Source of the DNA: Octopus vulgaris | Taxonomy: Eukaryota | Reading direction: 5' to 3' | Length of the DNA: 64,000 nucleotides | Assembly: GCA_951406725.2 (NCBI GenBank) | Contig: OX597817.1 | Location: 70,990,001 to 71,054,000, forward strand | The notes under the pieces: model-generated | Seen by the model: the letters and a program-made list of their open reading frames with translations, nothing else | Told to the model about the DNA's origin: nothing | Database searches by the model: none | Position numbers and translations under genes: made by a program | Part shown: piece after piece, positions 3,870 to 62,374 of the stretch | How the letters are laid out: each line of letters begins with the position of its first letter | Numbering within the stretch: position 1 is the first letter of the stretch

Positions 3870-4401
3870 TTCATCCGTATCTCACAAAAAAATTTTCCAC
3901 GCGTTCTTTGAAGACCTCCACGTCTACATCCATATAGTTCTCAATGGAAAAGGACAAAGACAATCAGCTAGCATTCCTGGACTTATTAATAACACGCACC
4001 AAGTGTGGATCCAGGACATCCGTATACCGCAAGCCAACCTTCACTGAACGGTACTTCAACTTCACAAATAAGGGGAGAAGAACATCGCAAAGCTGTGACA
4101 CGAGGAGATATTCATAAATCAGGTATAGCTGATCATGTATGGATAAATGGATGAAGTTAAAATAATAGACAGAGAACACCACTGGAAAATACGAAAACTA
4201 AAAGAGGCAGCACATATGTTACGACATAATAACCTCCTTGGCAGACCTAGTGCAAATATGAGTAGCATATGGGAACCGGTATTAAGGAAGGATAGGAAAA
4301 TATTAGATTTATAAACCCTAAAATTTACTTCATAATTGCCTACTGGCATATGGCGCGTGCTACTAATCCCAAGATTCCGAGTTCGATTCCAGGCAGTGAT
4401 T

Positions 4402-4476
<75 letters not shown>

Positions 4477-4480
4477 TATA
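3870..4480 (+). mobile_element. Penelope-like element 3' fragment (GIY-YIG C-terminus) followed by tRNA-like unit and (AAT)n
   Basis: 4150-4310 reads DEVKIIDREHHWKIRKLKEAAHMLRHNNLLGRPSANMSSIWEPVL, resembling the PLE endonuclease C-terminus; second copy at 34760-35110. Confidence 0.7.
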
Positions 4481-4567
4481 GAGATTGGCTTGTTTCAACA
4501 GAAATATATTCGTCTGAGATATTTCTTCGAGCAGGCATCGTAGCGAAATTGTGAAAATTGTGTTTGT

Positions 4568-29964: not shown

Positions 29965-30047
29965 ACACACACACACACACACATATATAGGAAGGTATGG
30001 AACGAATTATCTGTATGCATATACTTATACATATGTCTTTTGCCACA

Positions 30048-30088
<41 letters not shown>

Positions 30089-30203
30089 ACATTCAAATAA
30101 ACATGCATATATGTATGACTATATGACTGCATGTATGTTCGTGTCTATCTGTCTGTCTGCCAGTCTGTCTGTGTGTTTGTCTATCTATCTGCCTGTCTAT
30201 CTG

Positions 30204-30269
<66 letters not shown>

Positions 30270-30278
30270 AATCTATCT

Positions 30279-31975
30279 ATTCGCGTAAATGGACATCTAT
30301 CGAGACCTTTCGACATTGCACGTTCGCTCCGTCAGGGATGCCCCCTCTCGGCGTTTCTATACGTATTGACTCTCGAGCCACTACTGCGGAAGCTGGCGAC
30401 TCTGAGGGGCATCCCGCGAGAATTGGGATGCGGAACGAGCGTGTCTGTATACGCGGACGACGTCACCGTCATAGTGTCAAGCCACGAGCACATCGAGCTG
30501 GTCGGCGAGACACTGAAAGACTACGAAGCGGTGACAGGAGCAAAAATCAACCGGGAAAAGTCAGTGGGCTTGCGGCTCGGCACCGGGCGAAGCACGCCCA
30601 TGCCGTCCACCAGTACCTCCGTCGTGGGACGCTGGACAGACGGCCCGGTTGAGTTGCTCGGGGTCTGGTTCGGTCCGGACCTCCAAATGGAGAAGAACTG
30701 GAACGAGATAACGAGTAGGGTAGTCACTCTCGCCCGGCAATGGGCCGAGAGGAAACTGTCCCTAAAAGGTCGGGCGGAGGTGGCGAACACGTACATCGCG
30801 TCCATCATCTACTACCGCCTGACCGTGGTACCTTGTCCCGACCCTACCATCACCACGCTAGAACGCATTCTCTTCCGCTTCTTGTGGAAAGGATGCGTCC
30901 CGATGGTCAGGCGATCCATTTGCTGTCAACACCCGTTAAAAGGAGGGCTGGGCATACCATGGTTGATGATGCGCAGACACGCGCTGAGACTGCGACATCT
31001 CCGGCTCTATGTAGACCACGGTGAACAGGTGTGGTCACCGTTTGTGAGGCACGCGTTCCCGCAGCTCCTCTCCATGACCGCAGTCGTGGATCAAAAAGAG
31101 GCCGAGGAAGAGCGAATGGCACCGCGAGTGTCGCGTTGCTCTCAAGCAACTCTGCCGTCCCGGGTCGACCTTGAGTGACTTCAACACAACCAAAGCATTC
31201 TATAGGGGATTAGTGGAGGGGAGGTACGACGTCGATCTTGGGGCAAACCTGGGCGTCGACGAGGAATACCTGACCCGCCTGTTTGAAACGACTTTCGGGC
31301 CGGGAACTATGAACAACTTCCAGAGATCCCTGGCCTGGCGGTGCTACCGAGAAGCGCTACCCGTTCGGGATAAGCTCTATAGGCATGGCTCGAGAATGTA
31401 TCTGGTGGACGCGCCTGAAAGGATTAAAGACAAACACTTTCCTCTCTGGTCAATCTCTCATCAACTTCTTCAAGTATCACTTGAAGAGGAAAGTGAGAGT
31501 AGAGAGGCAAGTTTTGTCTAGTGAATGTTTAAAAAAAAGATGGGTGAATGTAGCAAGGATGGCACGTATGAATGACGAAGCCACCTTGACTATGATTCTA
31601 TAAACCGTAAAAATTAATACAGAGAGTTGCTTATTTGCAAAAAAAAAAAAAGAAATATAACATGTGACTTCATTGACCGAGGTTACCGTGGTCTTTTCCG
31701 TAGGCTTTTCTTTCCACGGGTAAACCTCACCTGTCCTTCCCTTTACACTTCATATTGACATTTCTGTGATAACGATCCCTATTGATCAATTCCCCCACTT
31801 TTTTATTTTATTTATTTTTTTTAATTTTATCCCCCCCTTTTTTGTCCTCTTTCTTTCCTTTTACGATCCCTTTTGATCGAAAACCAACTCCCCCTTTTTT
31901 TACCTCCAAAAGAAAAGCTCTACCTTGTAATTTGTCCTGTCTGTGTGCAGCCCTGTGTGGCTAATAAAGAAACAT
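30279..31975 (+). mobile_element. 5'-truncated Tx1/L1-clade LINE inserted in (TCTA)n
   Basis: RSLRQGCPLSAFLYVLTLEPL, YADDVTV, AKINREKS, KGGLG; frameshifts after ~31080; T-rich 3' UTR and aataaagaaa at ~31963; GC-rich relative to flanks. Confidence 0.92.
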
Positions 31976-34503: not shown

Positions 34504-34759
34504 TATATATCGGTTATCTGCAGATACATCGTTGAAAGCCTGATAAATTGTGGTATGCATCTCCGAATAGCATCTCTTATCGTAGTGTCGTATAGTTTTA
34601 AAATACACAGAAATATATCAGTAGGTGACGAAATTCCTCCAACAGCTGTTGTGGCATCGCTAAATACATATTTTTGTGTCTTTGACAATCGTCTGTAGCA
34701 AGTATCCAAGTATCTCGTGGATATTTGCAACTGTCGACACTAAAACGAAAAGCGGAGAC

Positions 34760-35110
34760 TACTTTCCCCTGTGGGATGAAGTTAGAATAATAGACAGAGA
34801 ACACTTCTGGAAAATACGAGGCCTAAAAGAGGCAGTATATACGCTTGGACATAAAAACCTCCTAAGCAAACCTAGTGCAGATATGAGTAGCATATGGGAA
34901 CCGGTATTAAGGAAGGATACAAAAATATTAGGTTCATAAGCCCTAAAATTCACTTTATAATTGCCCACGGGTATATTAGCGTAATGGTTAAGAGCGCGGG
35001 CTACTAAGCCTAAGATTGGGCTTTGAATAAATTCTACCAGGACACATGATGAAGGCTGGAGAGTAAACAAACGTTGTGGTAACACATCTGTCCGATGTAA
35101 ATAATGTACA
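34760..35110 (+). mobile_element. PLE 3' fragment: GIY-YIG end, tRNA-like unit, degraded hammerhead
   Basis: WDEVRIIDREHFWKIRGLKEAVYTLGHKNLLSKPSADMSSIWEPVL*; A box tagcgtaatgg at 34977; gacacatgatgaaggctgg...aaacgttgtg at 35041-35078. Confidence 0.75.
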
Positions 35111-35576
35111 GTGATATTTGTGTATGTGAATGTAAGTGTATCTCAGTAGTAGAGAGTGCTTGTTTTCGATGGAGGGATGGATGTTGGGCCCCAGAACAAA
35201 CTACCAGCTGGACACCCACGCCTCTCGGTGATACACGACTCTCGGTGACATGAAGATCAATTGCGTTTCACAAGTGTACTGCCTGATGTCCGGTCGAAAC
35301 TGTTTCATCACTATAGTCTTTTTGTCATTTGGAGTACTTCGTAAACATAGATAAGAACATATGTATATCGCTCGAGACGATGCTCCAATAGCTGGGATAT
35401 CCCAGATACAGCTGTCAGAGACTATCTTTACCAGTTTGTACTATTTTTACAATTCTACATTATGTATCTACATTTTTAGATTGAGTTAAATAAAATCAAA
35501 TGCTCTTATTCTGCCTTAACTAATTTTCCCTCACTATTTTAACCTACGTATACACACACACATACCCGCCACACAA

Positions 35577-45550: not shown

Positions 45551-46450
45551 TATTTGATAAAAATATAAATCATCTCATTTACATGGATGATTTAAAGCTC
45601 TTTGTAAAAAATGAAGCTCTTTGCAAAAAATGATCAACAACTGCAGGGATTACTAGCAACTTGGCCTCGATAAATGTGCAAAAGCTACCTTTATCAAAGA
45701 AAAAAATGACAGAAACATCCAATGTTAATGTCATAAAGAAATTAGAACCAGCAGAGAACTACAAATACCTAAGGGTATTTGTAGGGGGACAAAATCAAAC
45801 ATTCAGTGATGAGGGAAAGGATCAGAAGAGAATGTTATCGCAGGGTAAGGGCAATCCTCATGATAAGAGCTGAATGCAAGAAGCAGGATCGAAACGATCA
45901 ATACTTTAACCATACCGGTCGTGACTTACAGTTTCAATATCATTAACTGGTCAATTACTGAAATATGTAATCATGACAGAAAGATATGAAAATTGTTGAA
46001 AATAGAATGCACCACTCTAAGGTAGATATAGGACTTTATCTGCCAAGAAAAGAGGAAGACCGTGGACTTTTACAACTGGAATTAATAATGAAGATTGTCA
46101 CAATTGGACTAGACACCTACCTGAAACCTCTGATGTTTGTATGCTAAAACTTATTTCAAAACATGTAAACAAGAAAGCATTATACTCAGTAACAAAATAG
46201 GTAAAGGAATATCTAAGTGAATTCCAGATACAACAAATTCCAGAATTAGACGTACTAGAAATAAGCATAGAAAAAGCTAAGCATATGAAAACCCGTGCTA
46301 AACCTGCTGCCTCAGATATCCATACTGATAAATGACAAGAAAAAACCTTTCAATGGCAAATACCCAAAGAGAGCTAATAGTGCCGATGTTGACAAAGTCC
46401 TTACCCATCAATGGTTAGTGGCATCTGGCTTAAAATCAGAAGCAGAAAAG
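45545..46450 (+). mobile_element. R4/Dong-like LINE RT fragment starting at (AAT)n
   Basis: INHLIYMDDLKLF, GLDKCAK, YKYL, QWLVASGLKSE; multiple frameshifts. Confidence 0.85.
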
Positions 46451-47880
46451 TGCAGAGTGGCTAACAAAGACGGGAAGACAACTTGCAACTGTACTAAGAC
46501 AACAGGACGTCAGAATTAATCTATATATAGCGAGATAGAAGTTAAAGAAAATAGCAAATTCGGAAGGACCAGGCCTGGATGGAGTATAAAGCTACTGGCT
46601 GAAGAACTTTACACAGTTGTATGAAAGGATCGCCGCGCAACTGGATGACTGCCTGCAGCAAGGTCACGTCCCTGTCTGGATGACAAGTGGACAGACGCTG
46701 CTATACATCATGGACCCCCTGAAAGGGAAGTTGGAATCAAATTTTCGACCTATAACATGTTTACCACTTATTTGGAAGTTTGTGACCAGTGTCTTGGCGC
46801 AAGAATTATACAACTAACTGAAAAGTAACAATCTGCTTCCAGACGAACAGAAAGGAGGCAGGAAACAAAGTAGAGCAACAAAAGATCACTTATTAGTTGA
46901 TAAAATGATAATTAGAAATTGTAGATGCAGATTGACGGGACTGAATGTAGCATGGTTAGATTACAAAAAAAAGCATATGACATGGTGCTACATAGTTGGA
47001 TAAGTAATGTAATGAGCATGTTTGGAATAGCAAAATCCTGGAGAAAATTATTAATGAAAGTATGAGACACTGGAATACTGAATTGATCGAAGGAAAATAA
47101 AAACACGGAAAAGTGAACATCAGACGTGGAATATTCCGAGGTGATAGCTTATCTCCATTACTATTCATATTGGCTATGACACCGCTCATTATGATACTAC
47201 GAAAAGTTAAAATACCTTACGATTTGGGAAAAGAAAATTCTCAGATAAATTATCCTTTTCATGGATGATATAAAGGTTTATGCGAACAATGAGAAACAGC
47301 TTGAAAGTCTTCTACACACTATCTGCATTTTCTCAAATGACGTAGGTATGGAATTTGGGATAGAAAAGTTCACTATATTGAAAATGAAACGAGGAAGATG
47401 TGAAAGAAGCCAGGAATTGAAATGCCAAATAGACAAACAGTGAGAGCGGTTGAGAAAGGACAGTGGTATAAGTACTTGGGAATACTGGAAGAAGACAAAA
47501 TAAAAATTCAAGAAATGAAACAAATATCCAGTAGGGAGTACACAAGAAGAGTAAGAAAATTATATCTGTGCTTGTTTCTAGTACGTCTAATTCAAACTGA
47601 ATTCAAACAATCTAATGGAAGCAATAAATTCAAGAGCAGTGTCCTTAATCAGATATGGAGTTGGAATTATAGACTGGACCAAAAACGATATAAAGAAACT
47701 TGACAGAAAAGCTAGAAAGTTGTTGACAATGTATGGAGCTCACCATCCGAAAGCTGATACCAACCGGCTGTATTTGAAGAGTACCAAGGTCGAAGAAGCT
47801 TAATCGCAGTAGAAGAATGTGTAAAGATGGAAAGAAAAAGCCTCGTAGAATATTTGCAGAACATTAGAGAAAAACTACTA

Positions 47881-48242
47881 TCGCCCCACCACCGTACATG
47901 TCTCTACGATAGATTTAGAAATTCAATATTTCTTATTTTGATAATCAGTGAATAGACTTCACTGAATATACATATATACAATTACGAAGTCGAGGCAAAT
48001 ATCACCAGCTGACCGGTGTCTGCTACTCTAGGCCGATGAAGGACAACGATCCTGAAACACGGTGTCCCTAGATGCAGTTCCGGCGGCCGGGGGTGTTTGT
48101 CTCCCCTTCGTATATGTATATAAGGACACAGGGAAAAAATGTGTGAAAGCTATCAGGAGGCGTTCGATGCATCCTAGGGCTATACAGCGGTGGTGTACCC
48201 CCTACTGTCACGTTCTTGTTAGATTGACAGTATACAACCATT
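47881..48242 (+). mobile_element. 362-bp non-coding insertion with hammerhead and 6-bp TSD
   Basis: CTACTA at 47875-80 and 48243-48; removing the insert and one copy restores the LINE frame EKLL|KTVNEE. Confidence 0.85.
48027..48072 (+). ncRNA. Type I hammerhead ribozyme (U4C variant)
   Basis: TCTAGG-CCGATGA-AGGA(caacga)TCCT-GAAA-CAC(g)GTG-TC-CCTAGA; all three stems perfectly paired. Confidence 0.82.
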
Positions 48243-48919
48243 CTACTAAAGACAGTAAATGAAGAACATGTGATGAAGCACGTAATAGAAGGAAAGGACA
48301 ATAATGAAATACAAAGAGAGCACGTCAGACAGACTGAAGAGAAACCTTTGAATAGCCAATTTTGGAGAGCTACTGATGGCCTATGTGGAACAAAATCCTG
48401 GGATTAGTTTAAAAAAGAGAGAGAAACAGAGCCTTATTGTAGCAGCCAAAGATCAATCGATAAAAACAAACAGCTTGAGAAAAAATAGATATGGAGAGAA
48501 TGTGTCAGAAAACTGTAGAGTCTGTGGAACTTGGAACGAGACAAAAGAAACAAAATGAAACAAAAAATAAAAGATAAAATAAAACCGCCACAGATCTGTT
48601 CACGATGAAGGCTGTACATGGATATTTGAAATGACAACTGAGACTGTAAAAGAAATAAACTACACCAAAACCCTATCATGGAGTACTGACAAATTTATTT
48701 CTCGCTTTGAAGGATACCTCTTTGTAATCCATGAGTAAGGGATTACCTTCAAGTAACTTCTGTTCTTAGTAACAAAATCCTCAGCTGACCGCGAATATAG
48801 GCTACCCAAAAGCAAAACCAACGATATTAGCTGCAACGCTACCAACATAGAATGTCCTCTAGATGTTAGTATCCTACAACAAATGATGTGGCAGCTTGAG
48901 AAAGAATTCTTTTATTTTT

Positions 48920-60711: not shown

Positions 60712-61596
60712 CTCAACTCGTGTGTCTGTGTGTGTATCTGTGTGTGTGTCTGTGTTTAACTTCCCGGCGCATCTCCTCCTAGCCAACAAATCGTAGAAAC
60801 ACCAAAAACGGGTCACTTAAAGTTTAGGCGAATGAAAATTGAACTGCGCTATTTCTGTTCCGAAATTCATCTCACAAGTGCCAAAATCGATAATGTGTTT
60901 GTTTAGGCCTTATCCCATGCATTGAATAGTGAACCTTACTCAGTCAGCTGTTTGACGTGAACTGTGTTCACTACGCTTGCAAGCATGCGTAAATTGCATG
61001 AAAAATAAAAAATCAAGATATAAAAACGAATCGCCGTAAACATTGTAAAAATTCGGCAAAGAAATGAATTTTCGGGATGTAGCCGGGAGTGTTTTTTCGT
61101 ATTAATATATATATACTCTTTTACTCTTTTACTCTTTTACATGTTTCAGTCATTTCACTGCGGCCATGCTGGAGCACCGCCTTTAGTCGAGCAAATCGAC
61201 CCCGGGACTTATTCTTTGTAAGCCCAGTACTTATTATATCAGTCTCTTTTTGCTGAACCGCTAAGATATATATATATCATCATATATATATATGTTTATA
61301 TATATATATATACACATATATATATATATGAGAGTATGATAGAATAAGGTTAACTCTTCCAACCGTAGAAGAAAAAATTCAAATCGGACCATGTTAACAC
61401 CAAAAATTATTTACATCAAAAAGGTACCTTTTTTCTATGAAAATCCCTATTTTTTACGATGTTTTGACTGCTGTGTCGCCATTTTTCGGTGTATTTCACT
61501 TAAAGAGAACAACAAGCTACATACTGCCAAATTTTTACTTTTCAAAAATTCCAATTCTAAAGGACTAAACAAACCGCAACGCCGGGCGATATTGCT

Positions 61597-61598
<2 letters not shown>
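60705..61598 (+). mobile_element. Non-autonomous Helitron containing a SINE B tail (61125-61266)
   Basis: 5' tatataactcaactcgtgtgtctgtg; 3' gcaacgccgggcgatattgcttgt, a variant of the 15641 terminus. Confidence 0.65.
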
Positions 61599-61645
<47 letters not shown>

Positions 61646-61657
61646 TATATAGAAGGA

Positions 61658-61706
61658 GCTTCTACAGGACTAGAACTGTTTCATTCAAGAGAAATCTTCA
61701 GGAAGC
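61658..61706 (-). ncRNA. Type I hammerhead ribozyme (antisense copy)
   Basis: Exact reverse complement of 61887-61935. Confidence 0.8.
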
Positions 61707-61885
61707 ATATGATAAAAAACATCAAATTCCCGTTTGAAGAAGACCTCTTCCTCATGATAAAAAACATCAAATTCTCTACCAGTAATGATAAGTACGGCTT
61801 CAAATCAAATAAGGCCCCTCCTACCAACAGCCTACTTGAACCGTTTGAAGAAGACCTCTTCCTCATGATAAAAAACATCAAATTC

Positions 61886-61936
61886 AGCTTCCTGAAGATT
61901 TCTCTTGAATGAAACAGTTCTAGTCCTGTAGAAGCT
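61886..61936 (+). ncRNA. Type I hammerhead ribozyme
   Basis: AGCTTC-CTGAAGA-TTTC(tctt)GAAT-GAAA-CAG(ttctagtc)CTG-TA-GAAGCT. Confidence 0.85.
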
Positions 61937-62328: not shown

Positions 62329-62374
62329 GACACCTGATGAAGGCTGGTGTGTATATCAGCCGAAATGTTGTGTT
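62329..62374 (+). ncRNA. Minimal hammerhead ribozyme in PLE terminus 62215-62463
   Basis: GACAC-CTGATGA-A-GGCTGG(tgtgtata)TCAGCC-GAAA-TG-TT-GTGTT; paralogous to 35041. Confidence 0.75.

What the first reader, a model, noticed from the sequence alone, without database searches (positions are those of the whole stretch)
47881..48242. Cleanly delimited 362-bp ORF-less hammerhead element (retrozyme-like) with TSD
Seen: it interrupts an R4/Dong-like ORF and is bounded by CTACTA duplications; excision restores the frame. It carries the best-paired HHR in the window (48027-48072), a hairpin cagtgaa-tagac-ttcactg near 47946, and long-range complementarity ccctagatgca (48066) with tgcatcctaggg (48168) that would sequester stem I'. 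It has no poly(A), TIR or tRNA head. Established: animal non-LTR retrozymes are 150-400-nt HHR-bearing non-autonomous elements thought to use PLE machinery. Inference: a retrozyme monomer or solo pseudo-LTR with an alternative fold that could switch cleavage off.
Basis: partly seen in the sequence, partly recalled or inferred. Interest (0 to 1): 0.75.

Follow-up and report, generated by a model that had tools for sequence, protein, structure and literature searches.

The report
Hammerhead retrozyme-like insertion, one repeat unit
A 362-base non-coding insert carrying a slightly altered self-cutting hammerhead RNA motif is one copy of a many-copy animal repeat of the known "retrozyme" kind; it is exactly one repeat unit long, which hints at how such parasites get copied, but cutting, RNA circles and the helper element were not shown.

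Summary
The insert is real. CTACTA flanks it, and related copies of the decayed RT/endonuclease LINE around it lack exactly 368 bp. It holds one type I hammerhead (48027-48072) with canonical stems but a CCGAUGA core (U4C). That C also appears in two other contigs, so it is not just decay of this copy. The insert folds strongly (z about -6.9). It belongs to a multi-copy family found in all four runs laid. Contigs join its 3' end to its 5' end through a 3-base linker, so the insert equals one ~365-nt unit and the "6-bp TSD" may be only 3 bp. Best reading (0.6): a monomer of a non-autonomous, Penelope-mobilised retrozyme-type element, copied from a fixed internal start site. A local CCG:CGG misfold and a near-palindromic stem III suggest dimer-dependent cleavage instead. 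Rivals are a truncated PLE end, a Helentron-like element, or a LINE-borne SINE. Complete dimers, RNA, cleavage and the partner were not shown. It is a variant of a known kind with a testable mechanistic clue.

The parts
47875..47880 (+). Left CTACTA duplication. 47878-47880 also matches the family's end-to-start linker, so the true TSD is 6 or 3 bp.
   Evidence: loose ends before 47878; joints 48242->47879, 48244->47881
47881..48242 (+). Non-coding insert; with the 3-nt linker it is one ~365-nt repeat unit
47881..47938 (+). 5' module, which also follows the 3' module in other contigs. Three contigs leave it at 47935-47938 into unrelated AT-rich sequence (candidate PLE-type 'tail').
   Evidence: tables 7, 8
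47887..47895 (+). 5' arm of the end-pairing (junction) helix, pairing with 48187-48195
   Evidence: P 0.98 linear monomer, 0.97 in-silico dimer, 0.44 circle
47945..47965 (+).
   Evidence: P 0.97
47973..48122 (+). ~150-nt bulged hairpin (48 pairs, 5 of them G-U) that extends hammerhead stem I
48027..48072 (+). Type I hammerhead motif: core CCGAUGA (U4C) at 48033-39, stem II 48040-53, GAAA, stem III within near-palindrome ACACGGTGT (48057-65), predicted cut after C48066
48168..48179 (+). Segment complementary to 48066-48076; predicted to pair only in the cleaved nascent 3' piece
48187..48195 (+). 3' arm of the end-pairing helix; its GCGGTGGTG core is kept in diverged contigs of X1 and X11
   Evidence: (loose ends before 48199)
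48203..48232 (+). 3' hairpin (8-bp stem); other contigs carry a shorter loop
48233..48245 (+). A/C-rich single-stranded 3' end plus linker; proposed internal reverse-transcription start site (inference)
   Evidence: 9 of the last 14 nt are A or C; analogy to PMC11167929
48243..48248 (+). Right CTACTA duplication
46437..48540 (+). Host: decayed RLE-type non-LTR retrotransposon (RT, then Cys/His knuckle near 48510) interrupted by the insert
   Evidence: homology shown by tblastn only up to 47779

Best explanation
One monomeric copy of a multi-copy, non-autonomous, hammerhead-bearing retroelement of the animal non-LTR retrozyme kind, inserted by target-primed reverse transcription into a dead LINE. 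SHOWN: insertion with a short duplication; a multi-copy family; end-to-start junctions through a 3-nt linker; insert length equal to one unit; a strong + strand fold; the hammerhead architecture. INFERRED: source loci with two or more units are transcribed. The hammerheads cut after 48066, probably as a double hammerhead through the near-palindromic stem III, because in a lone copy C3-C4-G5 pairs with the CGG of loop III. The released ~365-nt RNA is circularised or stays multimeric. A Penelope-like (PLE) RT/GIY-YIG protein binds the ~110-nt structure spanning the junction (9-bp helix, 3' hairpin, A/C-rich strand), nicks AT-rich DNA and starts cDNA inside the RNA at about 48242-45, or about 57 nt further on, giving a 'tail'. 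This copy arose from exactly one pass round the unit, so its ends lie 176-179 nt from the ribozyme cut site. With a single hammerhead it cannot release a circle itself.
For: Empty-site joints of 368 bp in X1 and X6. Joints 48242->47879 in X1 and X6, and 48244->47881 in X1. Loose ends before 47878 read as the element's own 3' end in X1 (20 contigs), X5 (1) and X11 (3). Many divergent contigs over the insert (83 X1 contigs with another letter at 47910) (all). Fold z -6.9 linear and -6.4 circular; three flank controls z +0.2 to +1.6; minus strand -3.8. Of the 13 in-element variants shown, 8 stabilise the fold by >0.5 kcal/mol and 1 destabilises it, against 27% and 48% of 150 random changes (binomial p 0.010 and 0.003). 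Stem sizes 6/4/short with a palindromic loop III match canonical metazoan type I hammerheads (PMC4209133 passages). Contigs in X6 keep stem II and stem III while changing loops II and III, and a one-base loss at 48061 making stem III a perfect palindrome is seen in X1, X5 and X6 (self-duplex -9.3 vs -10.3 kcal/mol). Size, GC 44.8% and lack of an ORF fit non-LTR retrozymes. Three contigs end at 47935-38 in different AT-rich flanks, one (TA)n-like, as expected of a PLE tail and second start site (PMC11167929). PLE-like remnants with minimal hammerheads occur in the window.
Against: No contig spans a complete dimer or two hammerheads; the junction contigs could come from tails or from related families, and 'no listed piece spans the whole stretch'. 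The core departs from consensus (U4C, A10.1-U11.1) and Rfam does not recognise it. U4C 'considerably decreases activity in vitro' (PMC3088659), and 8 of 9 predicted Xenopus retrozymes did not cleave. No autonomous partner sharing the module was found: nothing in the window, and no genome to search. The proposed tail (about 57 nt) is longer than the 30-40 nt reported. The 13 variants were picked by the tool from 269 rows, and 9 of them are all carried by one X11 contig, so the p-values are optimistic. The end geometry also fits Helentron-type elements. The one-unit length is a single, post hoc observation. The junction helix has only P 0.44 in the circular fold.
Confidence: 0.6

Rival explanations
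1. A 5'-truncated end (solo pseudo-LTR) of an autonomous Penelope-like element rather than a self-standing unit.
For: PLE pLTRs carry type I hammerheads and tails. The junction module also occurs followed by 229-255+ unrelated letters, one such contig at depth 133 in X11. Xenopus retrozymes resemble pLTRs.
Against: What precedes the 5' end in other contigs is the element's own 3' end, not ORF sequence. No + strand ORF of 100 aa or more in the insert. The hammerhead has a helix III and an extended, bulged helix I, unlike the minimal PLE type seen at 62334 in this window.
Confidence: 0.15
2. A Helentron-associated (HINE/DINE-1-like) rolling-circle DNA element whose ends are the functional parts and whose hammerhead is a passenger.
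For: Inverted 8-bp subterminal pair 6 nt from the 5' end and 47 nt from the 3' end, and an 8-bp palindrome 10 nt from the 3' end. The last two distances fall within the HINE ranges of 38-60 and 8-35 bp (PMC4067079). Head-to-tail junctions, unit-length copies and shared ends with different interiors are expected of rolling-circle elements.
Against: HINEs show no target modification and are flanked by at least two T on each side; here the empty site has CTACTA once and the filled site twice. The subTIR is 8-9 bp, not 12-15. Variants interchange G-U with A-U or G-C pairs and the + strand folds better than the - strand, pointing to RNA.
Confidence: 0.12
3. A SINE-like element transcribed from a fixed 5' end and mobilised by a LINE (for example the RLE-type family it sits in); junctions arise by RT template jumping, with the variable 3-nt linker untemplated.
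For: Fixed 5' end and a 6-bp duplication. Linker variants ATA, TTA, CTG and CTA. The end-pairing helix is strongest in the linear monomer (P 0.98).
Against: No tRNA head, no poly(A) or simple-repeat tail, no similarity to any LINE end in the window. A hammerhead in mid-element would cut the template. Copies running about 57 nt past the junction need a template that already contains it.
Confidence: 0.1

Closest known systems
Metazoan non-LTR retrozymes (Cervera and de la Pena 2020, PMC7229834, parts 2-4 of 6 and passages read; Li, Clavereau and Pollet 2026, bioRxiv 10.64898/2026.07.22.740005, parts 1-3 of 5 read)
   Same: 150-450-bp non-coding unit (mussel 350-390), GC below 50%, type I hammerhead, strong self-pairing, end-to-start junctions, solo monomers common, TSD longer than 4 bp if the 6-bp reading holds.
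   Different: U4C core shared with other copies; A-U at 10.1-11.1; complete tandem units, RNA circles and cleavage not shown. It has a conserved junction-spanning module, whereas PMC7761336 (passage) says metazoan retrozymes show no conserved motif pointing to a partner and expects cDNAs longer than one unit.
Penelope/Poseidon PLE of Anolis (PAc; Frangieh et al. 2024, PMC11167929, parts 1-2 of 4 read)
   Same: Hammerhead upstream of an AC-rich stem-loop proposed as the RT start; a possible second 3' end (tail); the required RNA there extends about 55-60 nt past the start site, as the shared module does here; AT-rich targets.
   Different: PAc is autonomous, with a minimal hammerhead at the ORF start and RT start about 85-92 nt after the cut. 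Here there is no ORF, the distance is 176-179 nt and the tail would be about 57 nt. No sequence link to any PLE was shown.
Newt/axolotl satellite-2-type double hammerheads (PMC7229834, PMC4209133, PMC6155905 passages)
   Same: Weak helix III in a palindromic context that can pair between two copies.
   Different: Stem III has 2 pairs plus 15.1-16.1 and a 3-nt loop, and the block is predicted to come from core C3-C4-G5 pairing with loop III.
HINE / DINE-1 non-autonomous Helentrons (Mob DNA 2014, PMC4067079, passages and section 6 read)
   Same: Asymmetric subterminal inverted pair, 3' palindrome, no ORF.
   Different: Target duplication present, no TT target, shorter subTIR, hammerhead inside.

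Membership tests
Metazoan non-LTR retrozyme | Non-coding unit of about 150-450 bp, GC <50% | tested here: met
   362-365 bp, GC 44.8%; no + strand ORF of 100 aa or more
Metazoan non-LTR retrozyme | Type I hammerhead topology (helix I 6 bp, II 4 bp, short III) | tested here: met
Metazoan non-LTR retrozyme | Multi-copy repeat | tested here: met
   all 4 of 4 runs laid carry divergent contigs over the insert; 20 of 24 listed runs hold words of it
Metazoan non-LTR retrozyme | Tandem arrays with two or more complete hammerhead units | tested here: inconclusive
   end-to-start junctions in 4 of 4 runs, but no contig spans two units; no genome
Metazoan non-LTR retrozyme | Highly self-paired RNA | tested here: met
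   z -6.9 linear, -6.4 circular, 0 of 100 shuffles as stable
Metazoan non-LTR retrozyme | TSD, when present, longer than 4 bp | tested here: inconclusive
   6 bp formally; 3 bp if the CTA linker belongs to the unit
Metazoan non-LTR retrozyme | Self-cleavage and circular RNA in vivo | not testable with these tools
   only contigs were available
Canonical type I hammerhead (Rfam Hammerhead_1) | Core CUGANGA and G10.1-C11.1 | tested here: not met
   CCGAUGA and A-U; no Rfam hit; a natural U4C variant that works in vivo is reported
Canonical type I hammerhead (Rfam Hammerhead_1) | Loop 1-loop 2 tertiary contact | tested here: inconclusive
   UAC bulge before stem I and a hexaloop II are present; their likeness to the Schistosoma contact is recalled, not tested
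Penelope-like element (autonomous or truncated) | RT + GIY-YIG ORF continuous with the pLTR | tested here: not met
   none in or next to this copy; other copies not testable
Penelope-like element (autonomous or truncated) | Optional 30-40-bp tail from two RT start sites | tested here: inconclusive
   three contigs end 55-58 nt past the junction
HINE / Helentron | No target modification; TT/T-rich target | tested here: not met
   duplication of a CTA-containing site
HINE / Helentron | 12-15-bp subTIRs, 2-4 nt from the 5' end | tested here: not met
   8 bp (9 with G-U), 6 nt from the end
HINE / Helentron | 3' subTIR 38-60 bp and palindrome 8-35 bp from the 3' end | tested here: met
   47 and 10 nt
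tRNA-derived SINE | tRNA-like head and A-rich or simple-repeat tail | tested here: not met

The most novel reading that the evidence does not exclude
The family records the missing step of the animal retrozyme cycle. A ~110-nt RNA structure that spans the end-to-start junction, and is shared with relatives of different interior, is the binding and internal start site for a PLE reverse transcriptase. This insertion is an exact one-turn cDNA copy of a circular RNA. The family-wide C at core position 4 makes the lone ribozyme block itself, so only tandem transcripts cut and circles stay closed.
Probability: 0.25. Interest if true: 0.65.

Novelty: new variant of a known kind. Interest (0 to 1): 0.38.

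Why it matters
Animal retrozymes are known from many phyla, and solo monomers are common, so one more family is not surprising. What is open is how they are copied. The 2020 review passage says they show no conserved motif identifying a partner, and the 2026 preprint calls the mechanism unresolved. This family offers concrete handles: a fixed 3' end in an AC-rich strand beside a stem-loop, a possible tail, a module shared across families, a unit-length insert with ends far from the ribozyme cut, and a natural U4C core. All can be tested with a genome census and simple in vitro assays.

Tried and rejected
Whole genome not held, so no copy census. Rfam: 0 hits at gathering score over the window; 3 unrelated weak hits at E<=10 locally. 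No second copy in the window: no match outside the insert longer than 17 identical bases apart from weak AT-rich alignments (output partly cut). Exact-pattern scans found nothing in metagenome contigs or viral contigs. No RNA holder listed; X5 and X11 are only guessed to be RNA and were not used for expression. Summed contig depth is 29x (X1) and 9x (X6) higher in the insert than in the LINE flanks and rises toward the 3' end over 8 bins in all four runs (rho 0.83-0.95). The tool states that such depth is no copy number and cannot rank parts, so I treat both as hints only. A Helitron1 reading (5' TC, 3' CTRR, A|T target) was rejected because it implies a 366-bp insert while empty sites skip 368. 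Pfam found nothing in 9 of 10 window fragments, including all five host-LINE fragments. Some helix coordinates were off-register (printed as non-pairs, P 0) and were redone. Earlier scan notes: none for this place, sequence or relatives. Literature: searches for octopus+Penelope+hammerhead (5 papers), cephalopod+retrozyme and octopus+hammerhead ribozyme showed no description of this family in listings or passages seen. A giant-squid genome paper counts 235 Hammerhead_1 loci without detail. The supplement of PMC7229834 could not be read and the preprint's supplements are closed; either could list this family. Repbase and Dfam could not be searched. That the host is an octopod is my recalled impression of the repeat landscape and comes from no call.

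Full report
Observation. The coordinates hold. CTACTA flanks 47881-48242, and removing 368 bp reopens the local frame of a decayed non-LTR ORF. Its relatives have RT, a Cys/His knuckle and an RLE-like motif; the R4/Dong label itself was not tested. Contigs of other LINE copies skip exactly 368 bp (3 of 15 joints shown), which is independent evidence of the empty site. A descriptor scan finds one complete type I hammerhead in the window, at 48027-48072; 0 of 30 shuffles match its quality. Its core is CCGAUGA (U4C) with A-U at 10.1-11.1, and Rfam does not score it.

Anatomy. The insert folds at z -6.9 and the circular unit at -6.4; same-length flanks score +0.2 to +1.6 and the minus strand -3.8. 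The hammerhead caps a ~150-nt bulged hairpin (47973-48122). The ends pair (47887-95 with 48187-95), and a hairpin (48203-32) precedes an A/C-rich last 10 nt. Stems I and II form at P 0.85-1.0. Stem III does not, because C3-C4-G5 pairs with CGG of loop III (P 0.98). Opening that fold costs 6.1 kcal/mol with C4 and 4.1 with U4; the model lacks tertiary contacts, so this is indicative only. The stem III region is a near-palindrome whose self-duplex is -9.3 kcal/mol, the double-hammerhead signature described for newt and PLE motifs. It prevails only in the modelled 3' cleavage product and is lost once about 240 nt are present.

Family. No genome is held. Twenty of 24 listed runs, from 9 studies and four coded organisms, hold words of the insert. 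I laid 4 of them: X1, X5, X11 and X6, covering three organisms and four studies. X1 may be close to the window's source. All four have divergent contigs over the insert. The 3' end is joined to the 5' end through a 3-nt linker: joints 48242->47879 with A or T and 48244->47881 with G, and loose ends before 47878 that read as the 3' end in X1, X5 and X11. The repeat unit is therefore about 365 nt, this insert is one unit, and three of the six 'TSD' bases may be the element's own. Under uniform truncation within a unit, such a match has roughly a 1% chance (my estimate, one post hoc case). About half of the 18 X1 contigs leaving at 48245 continue into other sequence (agreement 0.5). Three contigs (X5, X11) leave at 47935-38 into three different AT-rich sequences. 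C at 48034 is shown in X5 record 19 (0 differences over 48011-48112) and inferred in X11 record 8, whose 10 differences are all accounted for elsewhere. The three other listed contigs over that base are undetermined, and 229 variant rows were not shown. Of the 13 in-element variants shown, 8 stabilise and 1 destabilises the fold, with the selection caveats given above. X6 contigs change loops II and III while keeping the stems. No contig spans two units.

Mechanism. The duplication, the RNA-type variation and the sense hammerhead favour a retroelement. In the one PLE studied in vitro, reverse transcription starts inside the RNA at an AC-rich stem-loop downstream of the hammerhead, at two sites that explain the genomic 'tail'. 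The minimal template runs about 55-60 nt past the first start, and cleavage is not needed for insertion (PMC11167929). The present family parallels this: a frequent 3' end in an A/C-rich strand beside a hairpin, a second end about 57 nt on, and a conserved module across the junction. I infer PLE-driven target-primed reverse transcription from a multimeric or circular RNA, this copy being one full pass. PLE-like remnants with minimal hammerheads lie elsewhere in the window but share no sequence with the insert, so the partner is unidentified. Confidence 0.6. Rivals: truncated PLE end 0.15, HINE-like DNA element 0.12 (good 3' geometry, but target duplication and no TT target), LINE-borne SINE with template jumps 0.1.

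Comparison and novelty. It works like a metazoan non-LTR retrozyme: size, GC, topology, multi-copy state and folding are met; complete tandem units and TSD length are inconclusive; cleavage and circles were untestable. It fails the strict canonical core, though a natural U4C ribozyme supports viroid infectivity. I therefore call it a new variant of a known kind. Monomers are common in Xenopus, mussels have 350-390-nt units, and this scan already holds 76 notes with both words in at least 32 genomes. Three paper searches showed no description of this family; unread supplements and Repbase/Dfam could hold one.

Verdict. A real, ordinary-in-kind element, interest 0.38. The one-unit length, the junction module and the shared U4C core are the parts worth following up (novel case 0.25, interest 0.65 if true).

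Noticed in passing
window 62330-62372 (+), downstream of ORF scrap 61343-61909: Near-perfect minimal (PLE-type) hammerhead: CTGATGA core, 9-pair stem II by the relaxed count, ACAC/GTGT stem I; probably a PLE pseudo-LTR remnant.
   Followed up: partly
window 34664-35330 (+): GIY-YIG-like C-terminal fragment (Atlas nearest named cluster PF01541 at 0.89, on 17% of members, a lead only), followed by a degenerate copy of the same minimal hammerhead near 35045; a related copy appears near 4100-4500.
   Followed up: partly
window 60040-59995 (-): A second hammerhead-like motif with the same CCGATGA core in an unrelated repeat; U4C may recur in this lineage.
   Followed up: no
X11 records 9, 10 and 11: Contigs that share only the junction module, or only the hammerhead 48018-48059, with the insert and then diverge: related families, tailed insertions or the autonomous partner.
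   Followed up: partly
window 48590-48900 and 45565-45998 (+): Further decayed fragments of similar RLE-type LINEs beside the host element.
   Followed up: no
window 29991-31600 (+): RT-bearing LINE fragment with a 395-aa stop-free frame (Pfam RVT_1, E 2.3e-13).
   Followed up: no
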